45,251 nt of DNA from Escherichia phage vB_EcoS-101114BS4: sequence record NC_073061.1; one strand, written 5' to 3'. How positions within the stretch are numbered: position 1 is the stretch's first letter; each line of letters begins with the position of its first letter. Position numbers and translations under genes: made by a program. The notes below the pieces were generated by a model, which did not search any database, had not been told where the DNA came from, and saw only the letters and a list, made by a program, of their open reading frames with translations. This document shows positions 2,160 to 39,095 of the stretch, in pieces.

Positions 2160-3302
2160 ATGCACCCGCAAACTAAAATTACCGACGAGCAATTGATCGC
2201 TGAATTGCAATCTGGCACTACCTCGAAAGATATTGCGAAGAAATACGGCCTTTCCCTTCGTAATGTCTATATGCGCAAAGCCCGCCTGTCGAAGAAAGGT
2301 ATTGGACACGGCAACGATGCTGTAATCCGTAAGCGCGTTGCCGATGGCTTCGGCGTTAAGCGTGTATCCGCCCTGGTGCGTGGCAATGGCGAAGAGGTCA
2401 TGTCCTGGGTCATCACCGAGCAGGACAAGGAGCGCCAACTTGAAGCAATGCGCGCCGTTGTCGAGGGTATGAACAGCGAAATCACACCGGCAGCACCAGT
2501 GAGCGCTCCGCCAGTCCCGATCCAGGCGCTTGACCTGCTTAACCTGTATACCGTGTCGGACTTCCACCTGGGAATGTTGGCATGGGGCGAGGAGACTGGC
2601 GAAGACTGGGATATGGCAATCGCCGAAGACCTTTTCTACCGCTGGTTTGTCGAAGCCTTCGCCCGCGCGCCGGACGCTGGCACTGCCGTAATCAATATCC
2701 TCGGTGATATGGCCCACTTTGACAGCCTCGACGCCGTTACGCCAGCCAGTGGTCACGTACTGGATGCCGATACCCGCTACCAGAAGTTGGTCCGCTACAT
2801 GATTCGCATGGTGCGCAACGTGGTTGAACTGGCGCTGCAAAAACACCATAAGGTCAAACTGCTAATCGTCCAGGGTAATCATGATGAGTCCGGTATGATT
2901 TGGCTGGCTGAAATGTTCAATACCCTGTACGAGAACGAGCCGCGCGTTGATGTGGACACGTCACCGGACGTATACAAAATGGTGCAGCACGGCAAGACAA
3001 CGCTGTTCTTCCACCACGGGCACAAAGCACGCTTTGACGCTATTGAGCCGGTCATGATTTCTAAATTCAGACAGGCTTTCGGGTCCAGTGAGTACAGCTA
3101 CGCGCACGTGGGCCACTTGCACCACCAGAAGATTGTCGAATCCCGTAACATGATTGTTGAACAGCACCGGACCCTTGCCGCGAAAGACGCATATGCAAGC
3201 CGTGGCGGTTGGATGTCCGGTCGCAGTGCAAACGTCATCACCTATAGCGCCAACTACGGCGAAGTAGCGCGCTTAACCATTAGCCCGGAAATGTTGAAAT
3301 GA
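2160..3302 (+). CDS. HTH domain fused to a calcineurin-like metallophosphoesterase
   Basis: N-terminal helix-turn-helix-like segment (TSKDIAKKYGLSLRNVYMRKARL); metallophosphoesterase motifs SDFH (DxH), GDMAH (GDxxH), GNHDE (GNHD), HHGH. Confidence 0.6.
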   Translation: MHPQTKITDEQLIAELQSGTTSKDIAKKYGLSLRNVYMRKARLSKKGIGHGNDAVIRKRVADGFGVKRVSALVRGNGEEVMSWVITEQDKERQLEAMRAVVEGMNSEITPAAPVSAPPVPIQALDLLNLYTVSDFHLGMLAWGEETGEDWDMAIAEDLFYRWFVEAFARAPDAGTAVINILGDMAHFDSLDAVTPASGHVLDADTRYQKLVRYMIRMVRNVVELALQKHHKVKLLIVQGNHDESGMIWLAEMFNTLYENEPRVDVDTSPDVYKMVQHGKTTLFFHHGHKARFDAIEPVMISKFRQAFGSSEYSYAHVGHLHHQKIVESRNMIVEQHRTLAAKDAYASRGGWMSGRSANVITYSANYGEVARLTISPEMLK

Positions 3303-3511
3303 TTAGACAAGTATTCATGAGCACGCAGGCCACCCGCCTGAAAGAGCTACGCAAACAGCTTGAAGGCTTGCGCCGATTCGAACGAACGGCAGCGGCAATA
3401 GGCATGACTATCAGTGAGCGGATCGAGATACTATCGCAAATACGCTACACAGAAGGCGCTATAAGCGAAGTAGAAAGCATGTTGACCAGATACTACGGTC
3501 GCGCCGTTTAA
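3299..3511 (+). CDS. Hypothetical protein
   Basis: 70-aa ORF overlapping the upstream stop (ATGA); start uncertain. Confidence 0.4.
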   Translation: MIRQVFMSTQATRLKELRKQLEGLRRFERTAAAIGMTISERIEILSQIRYTEGAISEVESMLTRYYGRAV

Positions 3512-3518
3512 TCCTCCC

Positions 3519-3544
3519 AGCCCGCCGATTTGGTGGGCTTTTTT
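3519..3544 (+). terminator. Rho-independent terminator
   Basis: agcccgcc-gattt-ggtgggct hairpin (one G-U pair) followed by tttttt. Confidence 0.65.
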
Positions 3545-3628
3545 GTGCCTGTTATAATCCCCCTTAGATGGCTGGGCCGTCTCCTATGTTGCCGATGGTC
3601 GGCGCATATGCATAAAAGGGCTTATATC

Positions 3629-4180
3629 ATGGCAGAAATCAAAGTTAAAGGCCGTCGTGCCAAACTGGACGGACGAGTAGCAGTTACCCCGCGCCGTAAA
3701 CCAGGCGAGCAAACAGAACACACCAATCTTGGACCCGAGATCGAATACGGCAAACGTCGTAAAGGCGGCAAATGTGGACGCCCGACCGACTACCGCACCG
3801 TGTATTGTGACCAGCTTCGTCGCTATTTTGCTGATGCCGTAGCCTGGCAGATCAACTACTCCGACAAGGGCGCTGCGCAAGTAATCCCTCACAACAAGAT
3901 GCCGACTCTCGGTCGCTTTGCCGCGGATATTGGCGTTGGCATCGCTTGCCTGTATCGCTGGGCGCGTGCACATGAGGAGTTTGCCGAAGCGATGGCGGAC
4001 GCTATGGAGTTGCAGAAAACTTTCCTGATGGAAGCTGGCGGCGTGACCATCGCGGCGGGCTTCGCAACGTTCCTGCTTAAAGCCAACCACGGCATTCGTG
4101 ACGATGCTCCGCTGGATGACGACGAAGATGATAACGGCGACGTCGTTGTCGAACCTACCGGCAAAGGCCAGGGTGAGTAA
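3629..4180 (+). CDS. Terminase small subunit
   Basis: 183-aa protein with acidic C-terminus (DDDEDDNGD) immediately upstream of and overlapping the large terminase; central HTH-like segment. Confidence 0.6.
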   Translation: MAEIKVKGRRAKLDGRVAVTPRRKPGEQTEHTNLGPEIEYGKRRKGGKCGRPTDYRTVYCDQLRRYFADAVAWQINYSDKGAAQVIPHNKMPTLGRFAADIGVGIACLYRWARAHEEFAEAMADAMELQKTFLMEAGGVTIAAGFATFLLKANHGIRDDAPLDDDEDDNGDVVVEPTGKGQGE

Positions 4181-20045: not shown

Positions 20046-20786
20046 ATGTTAACGAAAAAGGTTAAGAGCGATATCGCCGCACACGTTGCGGCATGTCTGC
20101 CGGAAGAAGCGTGTGGCCTGGTTGTCATGGTGGGTCGTAAGCAAGTATTCATCCCGTGCCTGAACGTATTCGAAGACCCTACCGGCGCGCGCTCGCGTAA
20201 GGACGCGTTTACAATTAGTGATATGGCATGGATGGACGCCGAGGATATTGGTGACGTCGTGCGCGTAGTCCACTCACATCCAGGCCAGCGGGAGTTAACC
20301 CCGTCATTGGGCGACGTTAACGGATGCAACGGCAGCGGCATTGTGTGGACCATCGCCAATGAGTATGGCGACTTTATCGAGATCGACCCGGAAGACCCGC
20401 CGCTGGTAGGTCGCCGATTTGTTCTCGGAATTACGGATTGCTATGGCCTCGTCATGGACTGGCACAAAAAACAGGGCGTGATTCTGCCTGACTTCCGCGT
20501 GCCGTATAACTGGTGGGAAATGGGCGAAAGCCTGTACATGGATAACTGGTATGATGCGGGATTCAGGGAGTGCGAGGAGAATACACCGGGGGCAATGGTC
20601 ATCATGCAGATTAGCGCGCCAGTGCCTAACCATGCTGGGATCTTCCTTCCGGGCAACCAACTACTACACCATATCTACGGCAGCTTGTCGAGCGTGGTCC
20701 CCTTCCGGGCAGGATTTTTCCGCGACAATGTGGTTAAATGGGTGCGTCATAAAGACTTACCTGGGGATATTACAGAATGGCAATGA
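20046..20786 (+). CDS. Tail tip assembly protein K-like (MPN/JAMM plus NlpC/P60-like)
   Basis: VVRVVHSHPGQRELTPSLGD (JAMM-type HSHP motif) and a downstream Cys/His region; 246 aa; synteny. Confidence 0.75.
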   Translation: MLTKKVKSDIAAHVAACLPEEACGLVVMVGRKQVFIPCLNVFEDPTGARSRKDAFTISDMAWMDAEDIGDVVRVVHSHPGQRELTPSLGDVNGCNGSGIVWTIANEYGDFIEIDPEDPPLVGRRFVLGITDCYGLVMDWHKKQGVILPDFRVPYNWWEMGESLYMDNWYDAGFRECEENTPGAMVIMQISAPVPNHAGIFLPGNQLLHHIYGSLSSVVPFRAGFFRDNVVKWVRHKDLPGDITEWQ

Positions 20787-21394
20787 CCACATTTAAATTG
20801 TACGGCGTCTTAGGACGTCGTTTTGGTAAAGTGCATAAGCTGGACTGTTTCACACCTGGCGAGGGTATCACCGGCCTATGCGTGAAGTTACCAGGCTTAC
20901 AGGACTTTCTAATGTCGGCCCACCTGAACAGCATGATGTTCAAGGTGCGCAAGGGCAAGCACACAATGACCAGCTACGACGAGTTGGGCGAGTTCCACGG
21001 CGACCGCGTAGTTACCATCGCGCCAGTCATGACTGGTGCTAAAAGCGGACTTGGACAATTGCTGGCGGGCGTAGCTATCGTGGTGGCGTCGTTCTATACC
21101 GGTGGGCTTGCCGCTGCCGCTTTCGGTGCTTCCGCTGCGACCGCTGCCGCTATTGGAACGGCGACGTTTTCGTTCGGTATGTCGCTTGCGCTGGGCGGCG
21201 CTATGCAATTGCTGTCACCGCAGCCGAAAGGATTGCAGACACGGCAGGACGTGGATAACAAGGCGTCGTATGCGTTTGGCGGGCCTGTAAACACGACCGC
21301 GCAAGGTACGGCACTTGGTGTATTATGGGGCGAGCGTGAGATCGGCGGCGCTATTATTTCAGCCGGAATTGTAACCGAGGATTTGAACGAATGA
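20777..21394 (+). CDS. Tail assembly protein I-like
   Basis: 205-aa ORF with Gly/Ala-rich hydrophobic C-terminal half, between the K-like and J-like genes. Confidence 0.6.
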   Translation: MAMTTFKLYGVLGRRFGKVHKLDCFTPGEGITGLCVKLPGLQDFLMSAHLNSMMFKVRKGKHTMTSYDELGEFHGDRVVTIAPVMTGAKSGLGQLLAGVAIVVASFYTGGLAAAAFGASAATAAAIGTATFSFGMSLALGGAMQLLSPQPKGLQTRQDVDNKASYAFGGPVNTTAQGTALGVLWGEREIGGAIISAGIVTEDLNE

Positions 21395-24300
21395 CGATTG
21401 TATACGACGTCACGGGTCATAAAGGCGGCGGTGGCAAACAGCACACCCCACAGGAGACGCCTGATAGCCTGCATTCGCTGGCTAAAATCCGCATCTTGCT
21501 CGCACTGGGCGAGGGCGAATTTGAAGGCATTCCCGACCCTAACGAATTACGGCAGCGTGTATACCTGGACGGCACACCGATCCAGAACGCCGACCTGTCG
21601 GATAACTTCCCCGGCGCGCGTGTGGAGTTCCGCCCCGGCACGCAGCACCAGGATGTGATTCACGGTTTTTCAGCGGTGGAAAGCGAGCAAACAGTAGGCG
21701 TAAAACTGGAGAACGGCGCGCCGTGGGTGCGCCAGATTTCGGACACCAGTTTGGACGCCGTGCGCATTCGAATCGGTATTCCGGCCCTGTACACCAACGA
21801 AGATAATGGCGACCTGGTGGGCGGGCGCATCGACTATAAAATCGTTGTGTATACCGACAATGCTGATCCGCGGGAGTTTACATTCGCTGCCGTTGGTAAA
21901 ACAATGTCGCTGTATGAGCGCGATCACCGAATCGAATTACCGCCGAACGTTAACACCGGCTGGCGCGTGGAGGTGCACCGCACAACGGCAGACTCCACAT
22001 CGGCAAAAGTGGTCAACGATATTCAGGTACAATCCATTACTGAGATTATCGACGCCCGCCTGCGATACCCGCTAACCGCGCTGTTGTTCGTGGAGTTCGA
22101 TGCTAAGGCGTTCCAGAACATCCCGCGTGTGTCCATCAAGTGCAAAGGCCGCAAAGTGCTGGTGCCGAACAACTACGACCCGATTAATCATACCTATTCT
22201 GGTGACTGGGACGGCACATTTAAACGCGCCTGGACGGATAACCCTGCGTGGCACTGGTACGATATTTGTATTACTGAGCGCTTCGGCCTCGGTCGTCGTG
22301 TCAAGCCACAAATGCTAAACCGTTACGCACTCTACCAGATTTCGCAGCGCTGCGATCAGATGGTCAGTGACGGCAACGGCGGTCAGGAAATCCGATTTAA
22401 GAATGATATGTACATTCAGTCGCAGACCGACGCCTGGACCGTGCTGAAGGATTTAGCGGCTATCTTTGCGGGCATGACCTGGTGGGGCAACCAGATGTTG
22501 AATATCGTCAGTGACCAGCCTGTCGCAGCGGTATCGCATACTATCACCAACGCCTCGGTCATTGATGGTCGATTCGACTACGCATCGGGAAGCCAGAAAA
22601 CTCGGTATTCCACGTTCTCGGTAGCCTACGGCAACCCGAAGAACCACTATGATGACGCCATCGCAACGGGTCAACGTGTCGAACTGGTGCGCCGCCATAA
22701 GATTAACCGCCTTGATATCACGGCGATCGGCTGTACGCGAGAATCTGAAGCGCAACGCCGCGGGCACTGGGCGCTAATCTCCAACCAGCTTGACCAGCAA
22801 GTCAGCTTTAAGGTTGGCATGGAGGGGTTATTCTTTATTCCGGGGAGCGTAGTCGCGATCGCAGATACTAACATTTCTGGCGGCTTCGAGACACGCGGCG
22901 GACGCCTGTTGTCAGATCCAGGCACGCGCACCGTGCTGAACACGGACAGCGAAATCACGTTCCGCCCTGGTGATAAATTCCTGGTGCGCACCGATAGCGG
23001 TAATGTGGAGACTCGCGAGATTGCCAGCGTCAACGGCAACCAGGTCACGCTAAAAACCGCACTGGACTCCGACCCGATTCCCGATCAGCCGTTTTGCGTT
23101 GATGGCGATGATATCCAGTTGCAGAAGTTCCGCATCACAGACCTGGAATATGACGACGCTACCAGCACTTTTTCGGTGCGCGGGATTGAGTACAACGATA
23201 GCAAATATGATGCCGTTGATAATGGCGCGCGTCTTGATCCGGGTATCTTCACTCAAGTGCCGGACGGCGTGATGAAGGGGCCAGAATCCGTTACTATCAC
23301 CCCGTCGCAGATTTCATCGCAAGGCCAGCTAATCACCAACGTAGATATTGTTTTTCCGCCGGTGAAGGATGCCGTTGTGTACGAAATCCAGTGGCGACGT
23401 ACCAGCTTGCAGAATCTGGAAGTACAGTGGGGCAACGACTGGGTTAACATCCCCCGCACGGCGTCGAACGGCGCGCACATCCCGAACGTGTTTTCTGGTA
23501 ACTACCAGGCACGCGTCCGCGCTATCGGTATGGGCGAGATTTCAGCCCCGTGGGTGTCATCCGAAATCACGCCGGTCGAGGGCCGTCTTGGCGGGCTAAA
23601 CGCGCCAATCATTACCAACGCGATTTCGGGCCTTCATCAAATTTTGTGGAAGTGGAATCACAACAACGCCGCGACGGATATTTCGTATACCGAGCTTGAA
23701 GTGCGCAAGCTGGGTGAGACTGAATGGAAATTCTTGACCAACGTCCCATATCCGGGGTCAGACTATGCGCAAACGTCGCTGGAATTCGGGATCTACCAGC
23801 AGTTGCGCGCACGCGTAGCGGATAAAATCGGCAACCTGTCGGACTGGTCAGACCCGTTTGACGGTCAGGTGAGTGACAAAGTTGACGAGTACATGCAGGG
23901 GCTTGATGACGAGTTCTTGACTTCCGAGGACGGTAAACACTTCCAGGAAGCAATCGACACCATTCCACAAGGCATTTACGAGGCCATGCTCACCGACGCG
24001 CAGCAGTTGTTTAACGCCCGCTCCGAGTATCAAGGGATTTATGCGGAAATCAAGGTGGCGTACAACGTTGCGGTGGACGCAAACGAGGCCGTAGCGCAAC
24101 TGGAAACGCTGATCGGCACGCGCCTTGACGATGCGGAAGCGTCAATCCACACGTTGCAGACTGCGCAAAGCACGCACGAACAAGCGTTCGCCCAGTATCA
24201 ACAAACTGTTGCCGCTAAGTTCGGGGAACAGGAAGCTGCCATCCAGCAGGTACAAACGGCAACGGCAGACGTAGCGGGCGCGCTGGCTGAGTATAAGACC

Positions 24301-24837
24301 CAGGTAGCGGCACAGTTCGGTCAGCAGTCCGCAGCGATCGAGCAGAAGATGACGTCTTCGTTTAACCATGCTGGCGGTAGCGCCACCTACAGCCTTAAAG
24401 CTGGCGTGACGTATAACGGGGCTTACTATGATGCCGGTATGCAGCTTTCCGTTGTGGCGGAAGGTGGCGCGGTTAAATCTCGCATCGCGTTCAAGGCGGA
24501 CCAGTTCTACATCATGCACCCGTCGAATGGGTCGCTTTCGTCCGCGTTTATCGTCGACGGCGGTCAGGTGTACATTGACACGGCGCGCATCAAGAATGCG
24601 TCCATCAACTTCGCACAGATCACGGACACGCTGCAATCCAATAACTGGAATCCGGGTAACAGCGGCTGGCGAATCGCGAAGGATGGCGGGGCGGAGTTCA
24701 ACAACGTAACGGTACGCGGCAACTTGTTCGCGACTACGGGTAATTTCGGATTCTCCGGCGGGTCCGTTACGATCGACGCAACGGGCGTCAACGTGCCATT
24801 ACCTGGAGGGGGAAGGGTTAAAGTCGGGACGTGGTAA
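21391..24837 (+). CDS. Central tail fibre / host specificity protein J-like
   Basis: 1148-aa ORF at the J position of a lambda-like tail tip module. Confidence 0.8.
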   Translation: MTIVYDVTGHKGGGGKQHTPQETPDSLHSLAKIRILLALGEGEFEGIPDPNELRQRVYLDGTPIQNADLSDNFPGARVEFRPGTQHQDVIHGFSAVESEQTVGVKLENGAPWVRQISDTSLDAVRIRIGIPALYTNEDNGDLVGGRIDYKIVVYTDNADPREFTFAAVGKTMSLYERDHRIELPPNVNTGWRVEVHRTTADSTSAKVVNDIQVQSITEIIDARLRYPLTALLFVEFDAKAFQNIPRVSIKCKGRKVLVPNNYDPINHTYSGDWDGTFKRAWTDNPAWHWYDICITERFGLGRRVKPQMLNRYALYQISQRCDQMVSDGNGGQEIRFKNDMYIQSQTDAWTVLKDLAAIFAGMTWWGNQMLNIVSDQPVAAVSHTITNASVIDGRFDYASGSQKTRYSTFSVAYGNPKNHYDDAIATGQRVELVRRHKINRLDITAIGCTRESEAQRRGHWALISNQLDQQVSFKVGMEGLFFIPGSVVAIADTNISGGFETRGGRLLSDPGTRTVLNTDSEITFRPGDKFLVRTDSGNVETREIASVNGNQVTLKTALDSDPIPDQPFCVDGDDIQLQKFRITDLEYDDATSTFSVRGIEYNDSKYDAVDNGARLDPGIFTQVPDGVMKGPESVTITPSQISSQGQLITNVDIVFPPVKDAVVYEIQWRRTSLQNLEVQWGNDWVNIPRTASNGAHIPNVFSGNYQARVRAIGMGEISAPWVSSEITPVEGRLGGLNAPIITNAISGLHQILWKWNHNNAATDISYTELEVRKLGETEWKFLTNVPYPGSDYAQTSLEFGIYQQLRARVADKIGNLSDWSDPFDGQVSDKVDEYMQGLDDEFLTSEDGKHFQEAIDTIPQGIYEAMLTDAQQLFNARSEYQGIYAEIKVAYNVAVDANEAVAQLETLIGTRLDDAEASIHTLQTAQSTHEQAFAQYQQTVAAKFGEQEAAIQQVQTATADVAGALAEYKTQVAAQFGQQSAAIEQKMTSSFNHAGGSATYSLKAGVTYNGAYYDAGMQLSVVAEGGAVKSRIAFKADQFYIMHPSNGSLSSAFIVDGGQVYIDTARIKNASINFAQITDTLQSNNWNPGNSGWRIAKDGGAEFNNVTVRGNLFATTGNFGFSGGSVTIDATGVNVPLPGGGRVKVGTW

Positions 24838-24844
24838 ATGAGAA

Positions 24845-24866
24845 GGGGCCATCCGGCCCCTTTTTT
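24845..24866. terminator. Terminator (bidirectional) between convergent J-like and RBP-like genes
   Basis: ggggcc-atcc-ggcccc hairpin followed by tttttt; nearly identical sequence recurs at 27669..27690. Confidence 0.75.
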
Positions 24867-25830
24867 AATACATGTTAGGTATGACGAGTAACGGGGTTGG
24901 GACGGCTATGTTGCGGTTAGGCATCTGGAATTGCTGCCGTGAGTAGTTACCGATTACGCGATTACGCGCCGCACTAACCACGTTGCCCGCCATGCGTATC
25001 CCGTTCATTCGAACGTGGTTGTAGCCGCTGTTGTTCTCAATGAGCGCGCCGGTATATGAAAGCTGTACGAGGCTATTACCGATATTCTGACCGCCGGTGC
25101 CGATATTAATTACCGAATTGAGCACAAACGGCTTGTTAACGGTCGAGAACGTGACCTGCCCCTGGTTGTTCGTCATGGTGATACCAGTCCCCGGTGATGG
25201 AGGCGTATTGTTGAAGATAACCAGATCCAAGTCCACTTCGGCCCCGACGTCATCAATCCCGCCATAAGACGAATTGCGGACGATGATACTACTACCATCG
25301 AAGCCTACCGATACGTTGCCATTATCCCAGCGCGCGAACGGGATACCGCCCACAGGCAAAGGCATACTACCGTTCACGTGCACGCGCTGCGCGTAGCGGC
25401 AGGTCATTAACCGGGACACGTTGGAAATCGCGGTGAAGTCTGTCGAGTTCGCCACCAGTAAGCCCGCATTGCGTGACCCCACCGGCAGCACTTCCATAAT
25501 TATACCAGCCCATTGCGGGAGGCCGCTGTATGCGTTATGCGCGTCCGCGCCTCGAAGGATAATTCCACTATCCCCGTTGCGCTGTACCGACGTCACGTAG
25601 AACGGGTCGGGGAGAACCAGCGTCTGGTCGAACACCTCAAGCACTTCTACCGGGCGCGTGAGTGCAACGACAAGGTCCGACCCTGGTGTTAGCGGGGTAT
25701 TAATGGTCAGCGTCTTGTCGGACTGGCAGCGCTGATCAAACGTAGTGCAGTATGACGGAGCGCGCAAACCGGCAGTTATCTCCATAATCGGTCGTCCGTC
25801 GTTGTAGTCGATGAGTATTCCAGCGCCCAT
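24865..25830 (-). CDS. Putative receptor-binding protein (tail tip RBP)
   Basis: 321-aa Asn/Gly/Ser/Thr-rich protein antisense to and directly downstream of the J-like gene; start at MGAGILIDY with GGAG RBS; function inferred from position and composition only. Confidence 0.4.
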   Translation of the reverse strand: MGAGILIDYNDGRPIMEITAGLRAPSYCTTFDQRCQSDKTLTINTPLTPGSDLVVALTRPVEVLEVFDQTLVLPDPFYVTSVQRNGDSGIILRGADAHNAYSGLPQWAGIIMEVLPVGSRNAGLLVANSTDFTAISNVSRLMTCRYAQRVHVNGSMPLPVGGIPFARWDNGNVSVGFDGSSIIVRNSSYGGIDDVGAEVDLDLVIFNNTPPSPGTGITMTNNQGQVTFSTVNKPFVLNSVINIGTGGQNIGNSLVQLSYTGALIENNSGYNHVRMNGIRMAGNVVSAARNRVIGNYSRQQFQMPNRNIAVPTPLLVIPNMY

Positions 25831-25832
25831 TA

Positions 25833-26054
25833 TTACCACTCCCGTGATTTAACAGATACAGTGCCTGAGAAATTGCCGTCGCTATCGGCAGATAGGCCCG
25901 TGAAGCGCATGTCCACGTCCCCGGCAGGGACTTTTTGCCCGTCAACGTAGCGTAACATGCAGCTACCGTAAGCAACCGTAATGCAATCGCCGTTGTTGCG
26001 TTCTACAGCACAACCGGACAAAAGGACCGCACAAATCATAATTAAAGTTTTCAT
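25833..26054 (-). CDS. Small lipoprotein, candidate superinfection-exclusion protein (Cor/Llp-like by context)
   Basis: MKTLIMICAVLLSGCAV signal peptide with lipobox LSGC; 73 aa; immediately upstream of and overlapping the RBP-like gene. Confidence 0.55.
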   Translation of the reverse strand: MKTLIMICAVLLSGCAVERNNGDCITVAYGSCMLRYVDGQKVPAGDVDMRFTGLSADSDGNFSGTVSVKSREW

Positions 26055-26135
26055 GTTATCATCTCCTATATTTGGTTGAGTTTTAGTATTGCACCGCTCA
26101 ATCAAGAATGCAACCAATTTTAAGAGGATTCAGCT
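26055..26135. promoter_or_regulatory. Divergent control region between the lipoprotein and lateral fibre genes, with a TGCAACCAAT motif
   Basis: GCAACCAA at 26110-26117 and a degenerate copy (ttggttga) at 26073; 18 bp upstream of the ATG at 26136. Confidence 0.45.
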
Positions 26136-27662
26136 ATGGCAGCGGGTACTATCTTATTAACCAATAACAGCCGGTCGGTAACGGGGACCGGTACGACGTT
26201 TTCGGCGTTCAAAGCCGGTGATTTCCTTTCTGTCGTAGTGGGGCAAGTCCCCTACACTATCGCGGTTGAATCTATCGAAAGCAACACCGGGCTTACTTTG
26301 GTGCTGCCGTTTGACGGCCCAACGGCATCCGGCCTCGCATGGGATGGCGTTGCGCGCGATACCATGTCGCTGGCAACGATGGGCGTAACAGTCCAGGCAC
26401 AGAAAGCACTGCGTATGCTTATTGCGGACGAGAACAACTGGCGTGCAATCTTCGGCGACGCTGAAGAAATCACAGTTACGTTACCGAACGGCACAGTGAT
26501 GCAGGGTATGTCGTGGGGCTACCTGTCGCAGCTAATGAAGCAGATCGACCCGGTGGAAATGCTCAACCTGCAACAACAAGCCGCCGCATCTGAGGTCGCA
26601 GCGAAAGGATACCGCGACGAGGCCGAAGGCTTCAAGAACGATACTAATACCATCAAGACGCAAACCAACCAGATTAAGACTGATACGCAGGCGATCCACG
26701 ACGCCACCAATACGATCAAGACGCAAACCGACCAGATTAAGACCGATACGCAGGCCATCAAGGACCAGACCAACCAGATTAAGACTGACACTGGCGTTAT
26801 TCGAGATCAGGCCAACACGGCGAAGACTGACGCACAAGCGGCCCGAGATGCAGCGCAGGGATACCGCGACGAAGCCGAAGGCTTCAAAAACTCAATCGAC
26901 CCCACTAAGTTCATGCAGAAGTCGCAGAACCTGGCGGACGTTGCCGACAAGTACGCCGCGCGCAACATTCTGGGGGTGGGCGATGACAGTATCGTTAAAC
27001 ACGCAACATTACGCCTGAACGGTGGCGAATCATTAACATTCAATGAAGTGGAGGCTAACGGCTTAATTCTATCAAACGCCTCGATGGGAATCGACAATTG
27101 GGTAGGCTTCACCATGCATAAATGGTACGCCGACTGGACACGCGCAGGAATTGTGCGTGCGGGTGACACCCACGTGTCAGACTACCGCATCCACGTGTGG
27201 AAGAATGGGGCTACTGAGGCGCTATTCCGCTTCCTGCCGGACGGGCGTCTGATTCAGGGTAACAGCGGCAACCCATCGTCGGCGGAGTTTCAGAAAGCAC
27301 CGCTATCAGACCGGGACGTGAAGAAAGAAATCCAATACACGGACGGCGCGGAAAGTTACAACCGAGTACGGCAATGGCTACCAGCAATGTTTAAGTATAA
27401 GGAGTCGGACGTACAGCGTTACGGCCTTATCGCGCAGGACCTGGCCATGATTGACCCGGAATATGTGCACTTGCTGCCAGGACACGGAATCTACGAGGAC
27501 GTTGTTGTTGGCGTGGACGAGGAAGGGAACGAGATTGTCGAGCAAAAGGAGATCGGATACACCGACGATGTGCTGTCGCTTGACAGTAACGTGCTGTTGA
27601 TGGATCTATGCGCCGCCTTCGTTCACCTGTTGCAGAAAGTAGAAAAGCTGGAAGGTAAGTAA
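26136..27662 (+). CDS. Lateral tail fibre with C-terminal intramolecular chaperone-like domain
   Basis: 508 aa; shaft repeats (TNTIKTQTNQIKTDTQAI); C-terminal segment with SDRDVKKEIQYTD...YGLIAQDL resembles the autoproteolytic chaperone domain of phage fibres and endosialidases. Confidence 0.65.
   Translation: MAAGTILLTNNSRSVTGTGTTFSAFKAGDFLSVVVGQVPYTIAVESIESNTGLTLVLPFDGPTASGLAWDGVARDTMSLATMGVTVQAQKALRMLIADENNWRAIFGDAEEITVTLPNGTVMQGMSWGYLSQLMKQIDPVEMLNLQQQAAASEVAAKGYRDEAEGFKNDTNTIKTQTNQIKTDTQAIHDATNTIKTQTDQIKTDTQAIKDQTNQIKTDTGVIRDQANTAKTDAQAARDAAQGYRDEAEGFKNSIDPTKFMQKSQNLADVADKYAARNILGVGDDSIVKHATLRLNGGESLTFNEVEANGLILSNASMGIDNWVGFTMHKWYADWTRAGIVRAGDTHVSDYRIHVWKNGATEALFRFLPDGRLIQGNSGNPSSAEFQKAPLSDRDVKKEIQYTDGAESYNRVRQWLPAMFKYKESDVQRYGLIAQDLAMIDPEYVHLLPGHGIYEDVVVGVDEEGNEIVEQKEIGYTDDVLSLDSNVLLMDLCAAFVHLLQKVEKLEGK
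26608..26892 (+). repeat. In-frame tandem repeats inside the fibre gene
   Basis: 63-bp unit (accatcaagacgcaaaccaaccagattaagactgatacgcaggcg...) repeated about 2.6 times, flanked by two copies of ggataccgcgacga(g/a)gccgaaggcttcaa. Confidence 0.8.
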
Positions 27663-27668
27663 TGAGAA

Positions 27669-27690
27669 GGGGCCATACGGCCCCTTTTTT
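27669..27690. terminator. Terminator (bidirectional) between the fibre gene and the end of the leftward operon
   Basis: ggggcc-atac-ggcccc hairpin followed by tttttt. Confidence 0.75.
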
Positions 27691-28264
27691 AGTTTGAGTT
27701 TTCCCAGTCCATTTTGCGCCGTACTAACGGGCTTTCGTAATATTCCTTGCCCTCCACTTCCACCAGAGGCCAGTCGTTGACAATCACGTATGGTTCCGCA
27801 ATATCCTCAATCACGCCGTGTGCGCTATGTTGCCCGAACGATACGCCCACCAGGATAACACCGGCAACCCGACGGGTGAGATACTCGCGAGCGCAACGCG
27901 CCTCTACCAGTCCGCGACGGATGCCGCTGGTGGCTTTGACCTCGTAGGTCCAGACGGCATCAATCATGTGCTCACGGAAGTCGGGGCCGGACTTAACCTT
28001 GCGTTTACCGACCATGATAATATCGCCGCGGTCGATAGTATTGGCGCTAAACAGGCCGGTACGCATAAGCAAGCCTTGCGGGATACAACTACGCCCGCCT
28101 GCCTGCCCTTCAAGGTACATGCCAGCAAACATCTCGCCCAGCACACCGACAAGTCGGCTTTGCTTGCACGCGTCAGACTTTAATCGCCACTGGTCAAACT
28201 CGACGCTCGCCAACATTGCCGCTATGTGGAATTGTTTACCGGTTATTTCGTATTCGCCGTACAT
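27689..28264 (-). CDS. Hypothetical protein, possible PD-(D/E)xK-type nuclease
   Basis: 191 aa; segment GPDF...IDAVWTYEVK is compatible with a PD-(D/E)xK core but is weak evidence. Confidence 0.45.
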   Translation of the reverse strand: MYGEYEITGKQFHIAAMLASVEFDQWRLKSDACKQSRLVGVLGEMFAGMYLEGQAGGRSCIPQGLLMRTGLFSANTIDRGDIIMVGKRKVKSGPDFREHMIDAVWTYEVKATSGIRRGLVEARCAREYLTRRVAGVILVGVSFGQHSAHGVIEDIAEPYVIVNDWPLVEVEGKEYYESPLVRRKMDWENSN

Positions 28265-28306
28265 TGTGAAGCCCTCATTGCTGCGGGCCGAAGCCCGCTA
28301 TTAGAA

Positions 28307-28900
28307 TTATTTAAGTGCGCTAGTCACCAGTGTTTTTTCCATATTGCGGAAGTCTTCCGGCGTCATGAGTATTTTGGACCCATCCTCGCCAGTGAGCACT
28401 ACCATAGGCTGGACTTCTTGATCTGCCACACCGAAATTGGCAGCTTTAACCGTCTTTCCGAACGAGGCCACCGTATCCTCGGCAACGCGCATTGCACTGT
28501 TATACGCATTAATCTCGCCATCCAGGCGCACGGACAGGTCCGAAGGCTTGAACGCGCCGCCGGTCTTGATAGGCCAACCTTTGAGGCTGTCGAATTGCGC
28601 TGCCGTTGTATCGATCTGAATCTCGTCATGCACGGTCATGTAAGACTCGCCCAGCAAAGCGGAATACGCAACCAGATCAACAATATTGTCTTCCTGGTGC
28701 TTACGGTGCTGGCGCACCAGCTTCAGGCAGATCAGGAAGGTCCAGGCTTCTTGCTCGGTAAGGTCGCGACCGGTAAGCGCGTTAAACACGGCAGCGATTT
28801 GCTTCGCGCTGCGTTCTTCTTTCGCGTTGTCATAGCCGTTTTCTTTCCCGCGCTGTTCCATAGTGGTGGCGGCGTTCTTGCAGTATTCAAATGCTTTCAT
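28307..28900 (-). CDS. Hypothetical phage protein
   Basis: 197 aa with AAGGAAA RBS; the N-terminal 85 aa resemble a widespread phage family of unknown function (not verified). Confidence 0.55.
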   Translation of the reverse strand: MKAFEYCKNAATTMEQRGKENGYDNAKEERSAKQIAAVFNALTGRDLTEQEAWTFLICLKLVRQHRKHQEDNIVDLVAYSALLGESYMTVHDEIQIDTTAAQFDSLKGWPIKTGGAFKPSDLSVRLDGEINAYNSAMRVAEDTVASFGKTVKAANFGVADQEVQPMVVLTGEDGSKILMTPEDFRNMEKTLVTSALK

Positions 28901-28950
28901 GATGTTTTCCTTTTAGTGGGGGCCGGATTGCCCCGACGCGTTAACTATAG

Positions 28951-28972
28951 TGCAACCAACCTATTGGTTGCA
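28951..28972. promoter_or_regulatory. Perfect palindrome TGCAACCAA-CCTA-TTGGTTGCA (candidate operator)
   Basis: 9-bp inverted arms with a 4-bp spacer, overlapping the stop codon of the HAD gene and 50 bp upstream of the next start. Confidence 0.6.
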
Positions 28973-29431
28973 AGTAAATTTTGCTACGTTTATAGAATAA
29001 ATTTTCGGGACCAGATCGCCGCACGCGCGACGGATGGCTTCGATATTCTTCGGGCAGTCTTCAATGATGACCAGTTCGGACACGTCCGCATAGCACACCA
29101 TTTTGAACACCGCGCACGCCTTAAACTCTGGCGGCGGGGTGTCATCCAGCATGTGGCGCATAAACAACCGGCCCACCGGGAAGATCTCCAGTTGCTCGGC
29201 GGTGGTGTCCCAACATTCGCGCTGCCGGTTTGTCAGATACGCGATCTCGAAGCCTTGCTCTTTGTACATGCGCAACAGCGGCAGCATATCCATGTTAAGG
29301 TCTTCGCGTACGTGTGCTTTGTGCCACTTCGCCCAAAAGGTTGATTTGGTTTTTATGCCGGGCACCAGGTCAGCACGCGCATCACTTGAACCATTAATAA
29401 CGCCATCCAGATCACAAATCAGTAGTTTCAT
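28961..29431 (-). CDS. HAD-superfamily phosphatase, 5'(3')-deoxyribonucleotidase-like
   Basis: N-terminal HAD motif I LICDLDGVI; 156 aa. Confidence 0.55.
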   Translation of the reverse strand: MKLLICDLDGVINGSSDARADLVPGIKTKSTFWAKWHKAHVREDLNMDMLPLLRMYKEQGFEIAYLTNRQRECWDTTAEQLEIFPVGRLFMRHMLDDTPPPEFKACAVFKMVCYADVSELVIIEDCPKNIEAIRRACGDLVPKIYSINVAKFTCNQ

Positions 29432-37672: not shown

Positions 37673-39095
37673 TGCTTAAGTCCTCGTCAGTAGCTTCAGA
37701 CCACGCGGGGCGCGGGTCGTCGATTGGTGCCAATACCGGTTTAGCCGGTGCGCGCGTGATTTTATCACACAATTTAGCCCACACTTTCGGTTTCTCGTCC
37801 TTCAATACCTTCTCGGCATCGGTAGGACTGAGCAATGTTTCTTTGTACATTACATCGCGCTTGATCCGGGCCTTCGTGAAGATTTCAATCACTTCGCTCT
37901 CATCCGCCCACTTGCGATTACCTTCCTTACCGGCAACCATCTTGAGGCCCAGCGATTCGCCATCACCCGCCATCACCGCCTTGAATACTGCGGACTCGAT
38001 AGCCTTGATGTGCTGACGCATTGCGTCGAGGCCTTCGTATGCATTACGCAGTTCCGCCGCGCTCATAGCGCCTGGTGCCGCCTCCTTTTTGCCACGCTTC
38101 GCACGTCGTGCCGCTTTCCGGGCTTCGCGGGTCATATTGCGGTCGTGGTTGGCGCATTCTTCCTCTGTCGCCACGCTCACGTCGTCGCCCAGGTCTTCGT
38201 CGGTTGCCGTTGGTGGGGTCATCGTGTCGATGGCGGCCTTAGCGCGGGCACTACACTGATCCGCAAATCGGCACCACTGACAGGCGTCAACGCTCGGTCG
38301 GAAGTCGGCACGGGTAAGTCCCTTCTTGCCTCGGGAATACGCGTCCAGTGCCGCGACCGCTCGCTTGGACGCAAACTTAGCGAATATCTCCAGCGCTTCC
38401 ACTGTAATATCCCACTCCGACGCCCCGCCGCAATACGGCTGGAAGATTACCAGGCGAACGGTCGTAATGTCGTACATGGTTTGCAGCTTGCGCAGCAGGC
38501 CCAGCGCGTACAACATAAGCTGTTTGTTTTCTTTCGCCTCGACCTTATGTCGCCCGGTCTTCAGGTCGCCAACAATAAGCATGTACGTGCCGTCGGTCTT
38601 CTTCATGACCATGACCATATCGGCAGTGCCAAACGTCTTCACCCTGTTGCCGTCTATCTCGAAGCCAGGGTGCAAGATGCGGGTGAGATCGGCGCGCATT
38701 TCAAGCTGGACAAACTCCGCCACTTCAAGGAGCGGTCGCCAGTGGTCGATGTACGCGTCACACTGTTTCACCATATCGTCGTTGACCAGTACGCCGCCTT
38801 TCGGTGCTTTCGGGTGCGCCTTTACCGGCCCCTTACCTTCGTTCTCAACGTAACACCCTTTGTACGTCTTCGCGGATAGCTTCTTCTCTCCGGCAATGAT
38901 GCGGTTTAGCACGACTTCTGATACGGTGTGCATACTCGTACCGTTAATCGCAGCTTGCCCGGATTCGTTCGGGATACCTTTTTCGACTACCAGGGCGGCG
39001 GGGCACCCCATCCATTTTTTAGATCCCGATGGCCCGAGTAATGAGTGTTCGGTATTGCTACCGGATTGCGTTTTGCGCTTTGGTTTAATAGCCAT
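37665..39095 (-). CDS. Cas4/RecB-like PD-(D/E)xK exonuclease with iron-sulfur cysteine cluster
   Basis: N-terminal Cys (WMGCPA), IVGDLKTGRHK and QLMLYALGL nuclease motifs, then CQWCRFADQC (CxxCx5C); 476 aa. Confidence 0.6.
   Translation of the reverse strand: MAIKPKRKTQSGSNTEHSLLGPSGSKKWMGCPAALVVEKGIPNESGQAAINGTSMHTVSEVVLNRIIAGEKKLSAKTYKGCYVENEGKGPVKAHPKAPKGGVLVNDDMVKQCDAYIDHWRPLLEVAEFVQLEMRADLTRILHPGFEIDGNRVKTFGTADMVMVMKKTDGTYMLIVGDLKTGRHKVEAKENKQLMLYALGLLRKLQTMYDITTVRLVIFQPYCGGASEWDITVEALEIFAKFASKRAVAALDAYSRGKKGLTRADFRPSVDACQWCRFADQCSARAKAAIDTMTPPTATDEDLGDDVSVATEEECANHDRNMTREARKAARRAKRGKKEAAPGAMSAAELRNAYEGLDAMRQHIKAIESAVFKAVMAGDGESLGLKMVAGKEGNRKWADESEVIEIFTKARIKRDVMYKETLLSPTDAEKVLKDEKPKVWAKLCDKITRAPAKPVLAPIDDPRPAWSEATDEDLSNE

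What the first reader, a model, noticed from the sequence alone, without database searches (positions are those of the whole stretch)
24865..26054. Antisense lipoprotein plus receptor-binding-protein-like pair between the J-like and lateral fibre genes
A 73-aa lipoprotein (lipobox LSGC) is encoded immediately upstream of and overlapping a 321-aa Asn/Gly/Ser-rich protein on the strand opposite to the tail genes, bracketed by two near-identical bidirectional terminators. This layout matches known receptor-binding protein and superinfection-exclusion lipoprotein pairs (T5 Llp, Cor of phi80/N15-type phages), where the lipoprotein blocks the outer-membrane receptor used by the phage.
Basis: partly seen in the sequence, partly recalled or inferred. 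Interest (0 to 1): 0.6.

Follow-up and report, generated by a model that had tools for sequence, protein, structure and literature searches.

The report
Known LptD receptor-binding and exclusion gene pair
This is the already-described two-gene host-recognition cassette of a Dhillonvirus coliphage: a tail-tip protein that docks onto the bacterial LPS exporter LptD, plus a small lipoprotein that blocks LptD from inside the infected cell. It is real, but ordinary.

Summary
The two minus-strand genes exist as described: a 321-aa ORF (24865-25830) and a 73-aa lipoprotein (25833-26054, lipobox LSGC). They lie between the gpJ-like tail-tip gene and the lateral fibre gene. Two details are wrong. With the 321-aa ATG start the genes are 2 nt apart, not overlapping. 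The second near-identical terminator lies beyond the lateral fibre gene (27664-27689), not beside the lipoprotein.

The window is a Dhillonvirus genome, 99.9% identical to phage vB_EcoS_WF5505 over this locus. The 321-aa protein is a DUF6453 member, 85% identical to the Oekolampad (Bas18) receptor-binding protein. That protein's cryo-EM structure bound to the LPS translocon LptDE is solved (PDB 9RPT). The lipoprotein is 99% identical to Oekolampad's putative exclusion lipoprotein. It is 39% identical to Rtp45 (PDB 9RPS), which binds the periplasmic face of LptDE and blocks receptor-binding-protein docking.

However, the receptor is LptD rather than FhuA, and the proteins show no detectable homology to T5 pb5/Llp or Cor.

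Both genes are under strong purifying selection. The receptor-binding ORF alone has been swapped between sub-alleles. The cassette is already known, so interest is low.

The parts
21391..24837 (+). gpJ-like central tail fibre / tail-tip protein (1148 aa). It is the presumed anchor for the separately encoded receptor-binding protein.
   Evidence: Pfam FNIII-A_GpJ, Phage-tail_3 and Phage_Tail_Tip; PHROG 31 'central tail fiber J'. BASEL papers place the RBP locus directly downstream of gpJ.
24840..24865 (.). Intrinsic-terminator hairpin shared by the convergent gpJ and RBP genes (GAGAAGGGGCC-ATCC-GGCCCCTTTTT).
   Evidence: Folds at -18.7 kcal/mol on the + strand (z -4.6) and -15.7 on the - strand (z -2.7). 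The U-tract is strong only on the + strand. It is annotated as a terminator in phage WFI and conserved in 7 of 8 compared loci.
24865..25830 (-). Receptor-binding protein (321 aa, DUF6453) of the LptD-targeting family.
   Evidence: Pfam PF20051 E 2.7e-118. PDB 9rpt_C E 3e-183. 85% identical to Oekolampad bas18_0025 and 34-35% to Rtp44/Bas14. dN/dS 0.076. No hydrophobic segment of transmembrane strength.
25833..26054 (-). Superinfection-exclusion pre-lipoprotein (73 aa; mature 59 aa from Cys15) of the Rtp45 family.
   Evidence: Pfam PF24052 E 3.6e-21, 75 bits against a 27-bit cut-off. PDB 9rps_D (Rtp45) E 2e-8. 99% identical to bas18_0026. Lipobox LSGC with +2 Ala. Cys24/Cys32 align with the Rtp45 Cys30-Cys38 disulfide, and the VPAG-VD-R motif is invariant.
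26010..26021 (-). Lipobox codons L12-S13-G14-C15. Cys15 (26012-26010) is the predicted lipidation site.
   Evidence: Read directly from the sequence.
26055..26135 (.). 81-bp divergent intergenic region between the lipoprotein and lateral fibre genes. It is the presumed promoter region for the lipoprotein-RBP operon and possibly for the fibre gene.
   Evidence: Almost invariant in 9 Dhillonvirus loci, including TheodorHerzl, which carries the divergent Rtp-type alleles. Candidate minus-strand promoter TTGCAT-17 nt-TGcAATACT and Shine-Dalgarno AGGAG 8 nt before the ATG were read by eye. The consensus scan reported no promoter in this region.
26136..27662 (+). Lateral tail fibre (508 aa): coiled-coil shaft with 21-aa repeats and a C-terminal intramolecular chaperone domain. 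It is part of the terminator-bracketed host-recognition block.
   Evidence: PHROG 1980 tail fiber and Pfam Peptidase_S74. Direct repeats at 26638-26831.
27664..27689 (.). Second copy of the near-identical terminator hairpin, downstream of the lateral fibre gene.
   Evidence: Repeat family D3. Folds at -18.7 / -15.7 kcal/mol. Annotated as a terminator in WFI.

Best explanation
The pair is the terminal host-recognition cassette of a Dhillonvirus siphophage, of the allele class that targets the LPS translocon LptD.

How it most likely works:
- The 321-aa DUF6453 protein is carried at the distal end of the gpJ-like central fibre. It inserts into the extracellular lumen of an open state of LptDE, contacting loops EL3-5 and EL11. 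This gives irreversible adsorption.
- The 73-aa product is made as a pre-lipoprotein, lipidated at Cys15 and sorted to the inner leaflet of the outer membrane (Ala at +2).
- There it binds the periplasmic side of LptDE and pushes a beta-hairpin up the barrel lumen. This displaces loop EL4, so an incoming receptor-binding protein can no longer dock.
- The result protects the infected cell from superinfection and protects progeny from being wasted on cell debris.
- The two genes form a small antisense operon, lipoprotein first, with a 2-nt gap that suggests translational coupling. The operon is driven from the conserved 81-bp divergent region and ends at the hairpin shared with gpJ.

Basis of each step:
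- Shown here: gene structure, family membership, near-identity to Oekolampad, synteny and purifying selection.
- Shown in the literature for homologues: RBP_Oeko-LptDE and Rtp45-LptDE structures, and genetic LptD dependence of Oekolampad.
- Inferred: that this 85%-identical allele also binds LptD; that the Oekolampad-type lipoprotein acts like Rtp45; the promoter; and the timing of expression.
For: - The window is a Dhillonvirus. Over this locus it is 99.9% identical to vB_EcoS_WF5505 and 99.8% to vB_EcoS-CHD5UKE2.
- RBP: PF20051 E 2.7e-118. The only PDB match is 9rpt_C/9rpw/9rqi, E 3e-183, full length. It is 85% identical to bas18_0025 with no indels.
- Gln299, the one RBP contact residue named in PMC12685063, is invariant in all 8 compared alleles.
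- Lipoprotein: PF24052 at 75 bits against a 27-bit cut-off, and an Rtp45 PDB hit. It differs by 1 residue from bas18_0026. The lipobox, the disulfide Cys pair and the hairpin motif are conserved.
- The synteny gpJ > / < RBP / < lipoprotein / lateral fibre > is identical in Oekolampad, TheodorHerzl and six other Dhillonvirus loci. Rtp has the same gpJ/RBP/lipoprotein order.
- dN/dS is 0.076 for the RBP and 0.025 for the lipoprotein.
- Literature: RBP loci downstream of gpJ predict the receptor without exception (PMC8594841). Four unrelated RBP families each map to FhuA, BtuB, LptD or YncD, with more than 30% identity within a family (preprint 10.64898/2026.04.02.716166). The structures and the exclusion mechanism are in PMC12685063. 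Bas83-85, which carry 88%-identical alleles, are predicted to target LptD.
Against: - There are no experimental data for this phage.
- The RBP differs from the solved one at 47 of 321 positions. I could not map these onto the interface because the interaction tables are images.
- The Oekolampad-type lipoprotein has never been shown to exclude. The authors failed to express it, so its function rests on 35-39% identity to Rtp45.
- The consensus promoter scan found nothing in the intergenic region, so the operon's promoter and timing are inferred.
- One LptD-family phage, Bas01, needs a second receptor (NupG) through its gpJ tip. LptD may therefore not be the only requirement here.
Confidence: 0.88

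Rival explanations
1. The pair has the same architecture, but this RBP sub-allele recognises a different outer-membrane protein or a different LptD surface. This would follow from its 12-15% divergence from the alleles with an LptD assignment.
For: There are three sub-alleles, 85-89% apart. The window belongs to the bov11C2/Pandora71/JL1 group. None of the compared members of that group has an experimentally assigned receptor in the papers read. Substitutions cluster at residues 237-247 and 284-289. A published k-mer LptD model missed four Dhillonvirus phages for lack of training diversity.
Against: Within-family specificity holds down to about 30% identity: Rtp44-type and Oeko-type RBPs are both tied to LptD. 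The partner lipoprotein is 100% identical to those of WFI, 22664B1 and Bas85 and 99% identical to Oekolampad's, which only makes sense if the receptor is unchanged. Gln299 is invariant.
Confidence: 0.06
2. The genes are morons or membrane proteins unrelated to adsorption. For example, the lipoprotein could be an o-spanin-like lysis component and the 321-aa product a membrane protein, as PHROG and several GenBank records label it.
For: PHROG 1265 is labelled 'membrane protein; moron, auxiliary metabolic gene and host takeover'. Many records call the 321-aa gene a 'membrane protein'.
Against: The 321-aa protein has no transmembrane-strength segment (maximum 19-residue hydropathy 1.23). A soluble homologue was purified and its structure on LptDE solved. 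The lysin gene lies in a separate part of the closest relative's genome. The lipoprotein belongs to the Rtp45 family, not to a spanin family.
Confidence: 0.02
3. The lipoprotein is a member of the Cor or Llp families and blocks a TonB-dependent transporter such as FhuA. This is what the examples named by the first reader would imply.
For: A weak PHROG 1119 (Cor) match, E 6e-4. Dhillonvirus alleles that target FhuA do exist.
Against: The Cor match covers only residues 1-30, i.e. the signal peptide and lipobox. No PDB match to Llp or pb5 appeared at E up to 1. The FhuA-, BtuB- and YncD-linked RBPs belong to unrelated protein families.
Confidence: 0.02

Closest known systems
Oekolampad (Bas18, Dhillonvirus) bas18_0025 / bas18_0026: RBP_Oeko and SE_Oeko (PDB 9RPT, 9RPW, 9RQI; Dunbar et al., PNAS 2025, PMC12685063)
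   Same: Same genus, same gene order and strands, and the same gene lengths (966 and 222 nt). The RBP is 85% identical without indels and the lipoprotein differs at 1 of 73 residues. The terminator and intergenic region are conserved.
   Different: There are 47 RBP substitutions, so this is a different sub-allele. The lateral fibre is different. The gpJ C-terminal segment is of a different allele.
Phage Rtp (Drexlerviridae) Rtp44 / Rtp45 (PDB 9RPS for Rtp45-LptDE)
   Same: Same two Pfam families and the same position downstream of gpJ on the opposite strand, with the lipoprotein gene first. The lipobox, the Cys pair of the disulfide and the VPAG-VD-R hairpin motif are conserved.
   Different: Only 34% (RBP) and 39% (lipoprotein) identity. 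The Rtp genes overlap by 1 nt, whereas here there is a 2-nt gap. The downstream neighbours are recombination genes rather than a lateral fibre gene.
Phage T5 pb5 (Oad) / Llp
   Same: Same logic: a separately encoded RBP at the tip of the central fibre, plus a small periplasm-facing lipoprotein that renders the receptor unusable.
   Different: No detectable sequence homology. The receptor is FhuA. Llp acts through long-range allostery on extracellular loops, whereas Rtp45-type proteins displace LptD EL4 physically.
Cor of T1 / phi80 / N15
   Same: A small lipoprotein that gives exclusion by inactivating the phage's own outer-membrane receptor, encoded near tail genes. Cor of T1 and Llp of T5 are cited for receptor inactivation in PMC11990801.
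   Different: The only similarity is in the signal peptide and lipobox (PHROG 1119, residues 1-30, E 6e-4). Cor acts on FhuA.

Membership tests
LptD-targeting RBP family (DUF6453 / PF20051; RBP_Oeko, Rtp44) | Full-length sequence membership: more than 30% identity and about full coverage to family members. | tested here: met
   PF20051 E 2.7e-118 over residues 4-297. 85% identical to RBP_Oeko and 34-35% to Rtp44/Bas14, all full length.
LptD-targeting RBP family (DUF6453 / PF20051; RBP_Oeko, Rtp44) | [quoted passage not shown] | tested here: met
   gpJ ends at 24837 and the RBP stop codon is at 24865-24867 on the minus strand. The layout is the same in 8 other loci.
LptD-targeting RBP family (DUF6453 / PF20051; RBP_Oeko, Rtp44) | Binds the extracellular face of LptDE, and infection is abolished by lptD EL4/EL5/EL11 mutations. 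| not testable with these tools
   Shown only for Oekolampad and relatives in the literature. Gln299 is conserved here.
Rtp45-family superinfection-exclusion lipoproteins (PF24052) | Sequence membership. | tested here: met
   PF24052 at 75.4 bits against a 27-bit cut-off. Rtp45 PDB chain 9rps_D E 2e-8.
Rtp45-family superinfection-exclusion lipoproteins (PF24052) | Signal peptide with a lipobox Cys, and a non-Asp residue at +2 (outer-membrane sorting). | tested here: met
   MKTLIMICAVLLSG|C with Ala at +2. The outer-membrane sorting rule is established E. coli Lol knowledge, not tested here.
Rtp45-family superinfection-exclusion lipoproteins (PF24052) | Conserved Cys pair (Rtp45 Cys30-Cys38 disulfide) and the lumen-penetrating hairpin segment. 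| tested here: met
   Cys24/Cys32 align with Rtp45 Cys30/Cys38. G39, V42, P43, G45, D48, R50 and G53 are invariant across four divergent members, including phiEco32.
Rtp45-family superinfection-exclusion lipoproteins (PF24052) | Binds periplasmic LptDE and blocks RBP binding or infection. | not testable with these tools
   The structure is shown only for Rtp45. The Oekolampad-type protein could not be expressed by the authors.
T5 pb5 / Llp | Sequence homology to pb5 or Llp. | tested here: not met
   A phmmer search of all PDB chains at E up to 1 returned only 9RPT for the RBP. For the lipoprotein it returned only Rtp45 plus chance hits. pb5-FhuA (8A8C) is a PDB entry according to PMC12685063. 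Fold-level similarity was not tested.
Cor (T1/phi80/N15) superinfection-exclusion lipoproteins | Sequence homology over the mature protein. | tested here: not met
   The PHROG 1119 match (E 6e-4) is confined to residues 1-30, the signal peptide and lipobox. The strong match is to PHROG 4281.

The most novel reading that the evidence does not exclude
Two extensions are not excluded by the evidence.

1. Within the LptD cassette the RBP ORF alone behaves as an exchangeable sub-cassette. Its breakpoints fall at the shared terminator and at the lipoprotein/RBP junction, while the lipoprotein stays essentially invariant. This could mean that one periplasmic blocker cross-protects against all RBP sub-alleles. 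RBP diversification would then track resistance mutations or natural polymorphism in LptD surface loops.

2. The same two families (DUF6453 and PF24052) are both present, unlinked, in phiEco32-like Gordonclarkvirinae podoviruses. LptD may therefore be an unrecognised terminal receptor for that group as well.
Probability: 0.3. Interest if true: 0.45.

Novelty: already known. Interest (0 to 1): 0.15.

Why it matters
For this window it mainly allows confident annotation. Genes labelled 'hypothetical protein', 'membrane protein' or 'lipoprotein' in GenBank can be named as the LptD-targeting receptor-binding protein and its cognate exclusion lipoprotein. The phage's terminal receptor can be predicted as LptD. 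LptD is essential and conserved, so such phages interest people working on phage steering and receptor engineering, but that case has already been made in the literature. The only new angles are the RBP-only mosaicism with an invariant lipoprotein, and the presence of both families in Gordonclarkvirinae.

Tried and rejected
- The consensus promoter/terminator scan over 24000-28500 found no promoter in the divergent region. It also missed both hairpin terminators, probably because maximal stem extension consumes the T-tract. I folded the hairpins directly instead.
- An Rfam scan of 24000-28500 gave only a sub-threshold STnc50 match (29.8 against 55 bits) sitting on the terminator hairpin. I treated it as chance.
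- NCBIfam has no model for either protein.
- I looked in the PNAS paper's supplements for RBP-LptD contact residues, to map the 47 substitutions. The interaction tables are images and are not held as text.
- I rejected an o-spanin or lysis role for the lipoprotein, and a 'membrane protein/moron' role for the 321-aa protein. Reasons: no transmembrane-strength segment, a separate lysin locus, and a solved soluble homologue.
- I rejected Cor and Llp membership.
- I did not run the large protein-database searches or a structure prediction. An 85%-identical solved structure already answers the question, and fold-level similarity to pb5 would not change the verdict.

Full report
**Observation**

The minus strand between the gpJ-like gene (21391-24837, +) and the lateral fibre gene (26136-27662, +) carries two ORFs:
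- 24865-25830, 321 aa from the ATG. An in-frame GTG at 25839 would give 324 aa.
- 25833-26054, 73 aa.

The 73-aa product starts MKTLIMICAVLLSG|C. This is a short basic n-region, a hydrophobic core, lipobox LSGC with Cys15, and Ala at +2.

The 321-aa protein is moderately Gly/Asn-rich (G 10.3%, N 9.3%, S 7.5%, V 10.0%). It has no segment of transmembrane hydrophobicity.

- The lipoprotein stop (TAA, 25835-25833) lies 2 nt before the ATG of the 321-aa ORF. The minus strand reads ...GGGAGTGGTAATAATGGGC. The genes therefore abut rather than overlap. A GGGAG Shine-Dalgarno sits 8 nt upstream of the ATG. All homologues, and the crystallised construct, begin MGAGIL.
- The two near-identical hairpin terminators lie at 24840-24865 and 27664-27689. 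The second is downstream of the lateral fibre gene. The bracketed block is therefore RBP + lipoprotein + lateral fibre. Upstream of the lipoprotein there is an 81-bp divergent intergenic region instead. The same hairpin type occurs twice more in the genome, at 8608 and 14865.

**Identity of the window**

Over this locus the window is 99.9% identical to Escherichia phage vB_EcoS_WF5505 and 99.8% to vB_EcoS-CHD5UKE2, both Dhillonvirus. It is colinear with the whole CHD5UKE2 genome, in rearranged orientation, at roughly 80-99% identity. In those records the two genes are annotated only as 'hypothetical protein' and 'lipoprotein'.

**What the proteins are**

The 321-aa protein:
- It matches Pfam DUF6453 (PF20051) at E 2.7e-118.
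- Among all PDB chains it matches only 9rpt_C / 9rpw / 9rqi, at E 3e-183 over the full length.
- That chain is the receptor-binding protein of phage Oekolampad (Bas18, Dhillonvirus), solved by cryo-EM bound to an open state of the LPS translocon LptDE (PMC12685063).
- Direct alignment gives 85% identity with no indels to bas18_0025, and 34-35% to Rtp44 and to the TheodorHerzl homologue.

The 73-aa protein:
- It matches PF24052 'Phage lipoprotein family' at 75 bits against a 27-bit cut-off.
- It matches PDB 9rps_D at E 2e-8. This is Rtp45, the superinfection-exclusion lipoprotein of phage Rtp, solved on the periplasmic side of LptDE.
- It differs at a single residue (A61S) from Oekolampad bas18_0026, and is 39% identical to Rtp45.
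- Cys24 and Cys32 align with the Rtp45 Cys30-Cys38 disulfide.
- The segment G..VP.G.[VI]D.R..G is invariant even in the most distant members compared. It plausibly corresponds to the hairpin that enters the LptD lumen; that correspondence is my inference.

**Context and evolution**

The arrangement gpJ > / < RBP / < lipoprotein / lateral fibre > is identical in Oekolampad, TheodorHerzl, bov11C2, JL1, Pandora71, 22664B1, WFI and Bas85. Rtp has the same gpJ/RBP/lipoprotein order.

Across 28 pairs of Dhillonvirus loci both genes are under strong purifying selection:

| Gene | Mean dN/dS |
|---|---|
| RBP | 0.076 |
| Lipoprotein | 0.025 |
| gpJ C-terminal part | 0.052 |

A sliding-window comparison shows a mosaic:
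- The window's gpJ and lipoprotein genes are closest to WFI, 22664B1 and Bas85 (about 94-97% nt). The lipoprotein is 100% identical in protein to those phages.
- The RBP ORF alone is only about 80% identical to those phages, but 91-93% identical to bov11C2 and Pandora71.
- The switch points fall at the terminator (about 24840) and at the RBP/lipoprotein junction (about 25800).
- There are three RBP sub-alleles, 85-89% apart in protein.

The 81-bp intergenic region is almost invariant, even in TheodorHerzl, which carries the Rtp-type alleles. This points to conserved regulatory signals. By eye, a minus-strand TTGCAT-17 nt-TGcAATACT element and an AGGAG Shine-Dalgarno fit. The consensus scan did not call a promoter there, so this remains an inference.

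**Mechanism**

From the literature on the homologues:
- The RBP is attached non-covalently to the distal end of the J-like protein.
- It inserts deeply into the extracellular lumen of LptDE. The interface is about 1,700 Å2, with contacts to EL3-5 and EL11.
- lptD EL4, EL5 and EL11 mutations abolish infection and binding.
- Rtp45 binds near LptD strands β5-8, between LptE and LptM. It sends a hairpin through the lumen and displaces EL4 by up to 20 Å. This sterically prevents the conformation that the RBP needs.

I infer the same for this pair. Ala at +2 predicts sorting to the outer membrane (E. coli Lol rule, established knowledge). The 2-nt spacing suggests co-translation of blocker and RBP from one transcript.

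What is not shown anywhere is exclusion by the Oekolampad-type lipoprotein itself. The authors could not express it.

**Comparison with known systems**

This is the 'bona fide RBP locus' of small siphoviruses defined in the BASEL papers:
- Allele classes predict FhuA, BtuB, YncD, LptD or LamB specificity.
- A large genetic screen confirmed this. It found four unrelated RBP families, each tied to one receptor.

No homology was detected to pb5 or Llp in the PDB search. The Cor PHROG match covers only the signal peptide. The mode of blocking also differs from Llp's allostery.

**Rivals**

| Rival | Main evidence against | Confidence |
|---|---|---|
| Changed receptor specificity in this sub-allele | Within-family specificity holds down to about 30% identity; the lipoprotein is unchanged; Gln299 is invariant | 0.06 |
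| 'Membrane protein/moron' or spanin reading | Contradicted by the solved soluble homologue, the hydropathy profile and the separate lysin locus | 0.02 |
| Cor or Llp family membership | No homology over the mature protein or in the PDB search | 0.02 |

**Side observations**

- DUF6453 and PF24052 members also occur in phiEco32-like Gordonclarkvirinae podoviruses. The DUF6453 gene lies between the tail fibre genes and the transglycosylase/ejection-protein genes (KBNP1711 gp019, Pfam E 1.3e-23; phiEco32 20445-21473). The lipoprotein gene lies in a cluster of small genes about 45 kb away (phi32_106, E 2.4e-36).
- The SU10 structure paper does not mention a gp19. No paper in the searchable library links these phages to LptD.
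- In Klebsiella T1-like phages the two genes are about 10 kb apart.

**Verdict**

It is, however, a well-characterised, already published cassette in an already deposited phage genome. Novelty: already known. Interest: 0.15.

Noticed in passing
window 24840-25800, compared with L004-L009 and L001: The RBP ORF alone is mosaic. The window's gpJ and lipoprotein genes are closest to WFI/22664B1/Bas85 (94-97% nt; lipoprotein 100% aa). The RBP ORF is about 80% nt to those phages and 91-93% to bov11C2/Pandora71. The breakpoints fall at the terminator and at the RBP/lipoprotein junction. There are three RBP sub-alleles, 85-89% apart.
   Followed up: yes
L010 (phiEco32 NC_010324) 3468-3749; phiEco32 record 20445-21473; L011 (KBNP1711) 2662-3696: phiEco32-like Gordonclarkvirinae podoviruses carry both families, unlinked. 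A DUF6453 protein (Pfam E 1.3e-23) lies between the tail fibre genes and the transglycosylase/ejection-protein genes. A PF24052 Rtp45-like lipoprotein (E 2.4e-36) lies in a cluster of small genes about 45 kb away. No paper found links these phages to LptD, so LptD may be their unrecognised terminal receptor.
   Followed up: partly
window 26055-26135: The 81-bp divergent intergenic region between the lipoprotein and lateral fibre genes is nearly invariant in 9 Dhillonvirus genomes, including one with very different RBP and lipoprotein alleles. It contains a candidate minus-strand TTGCAT-17 nt-TGcAATACT promoter that the consensus scan did not call.
   Followed up: partly
window 26598-26891 (lateral fibre gene): The fibre shaft contains 63-nt and 42-nt direct repeats encoding TNTIKTQTNQIKTDTQAI-type units, flanked by a duplicated GYRDEAEGFKN motif. 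The 99.8%-identical phage CHD5UKE2 has exactly one more 21-aa unit (529 against 508 aa). This is repeat copy-number variation in the fibre.
   Followed up: yes
window 8608, 14865, 24843, 27667: There are four copies of the same terminator type (GGGGCC-N4/5-GGCCCC-T6). The two that flank the host-recognition block also share the upstream context TAATGAGAA, so they could act as recombination boundaries for the block.
   Followed up: partly
and one search hit tables (e.g. Klebsiella phage TAH8: RBP at 28095-29048, lipoprotein at 38656-38880): In Klebsiella T1-like phages the DUF6453 gene and the Rtp45-like lipoprotein gene are about 10 kb apart, so adjacency of the pair is not universal.
   Followed up: no
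one search hit table (OQ221563 Acinetobacter phage NJ01; MG065669/71 Campylobacter phages; PP134917 Pseudomonas phage PsgS01F): Records attributed to Acinetobacter, Campylobacter and Pseudomonas hosts carry coliphage-type LptD RBPs, up to 89% identical to this one. Host mis-assignment or contaminating coliphages seems likely.
   Followed up: no
window 24832-24910 (-): A sub-threshold Rfam match to sRNA STnc50 (29.8 against 55 bits, E 0.038) overlaps the terminator hairpin and the RBP 3' end. I judged it to be chance.
   Followed up: no
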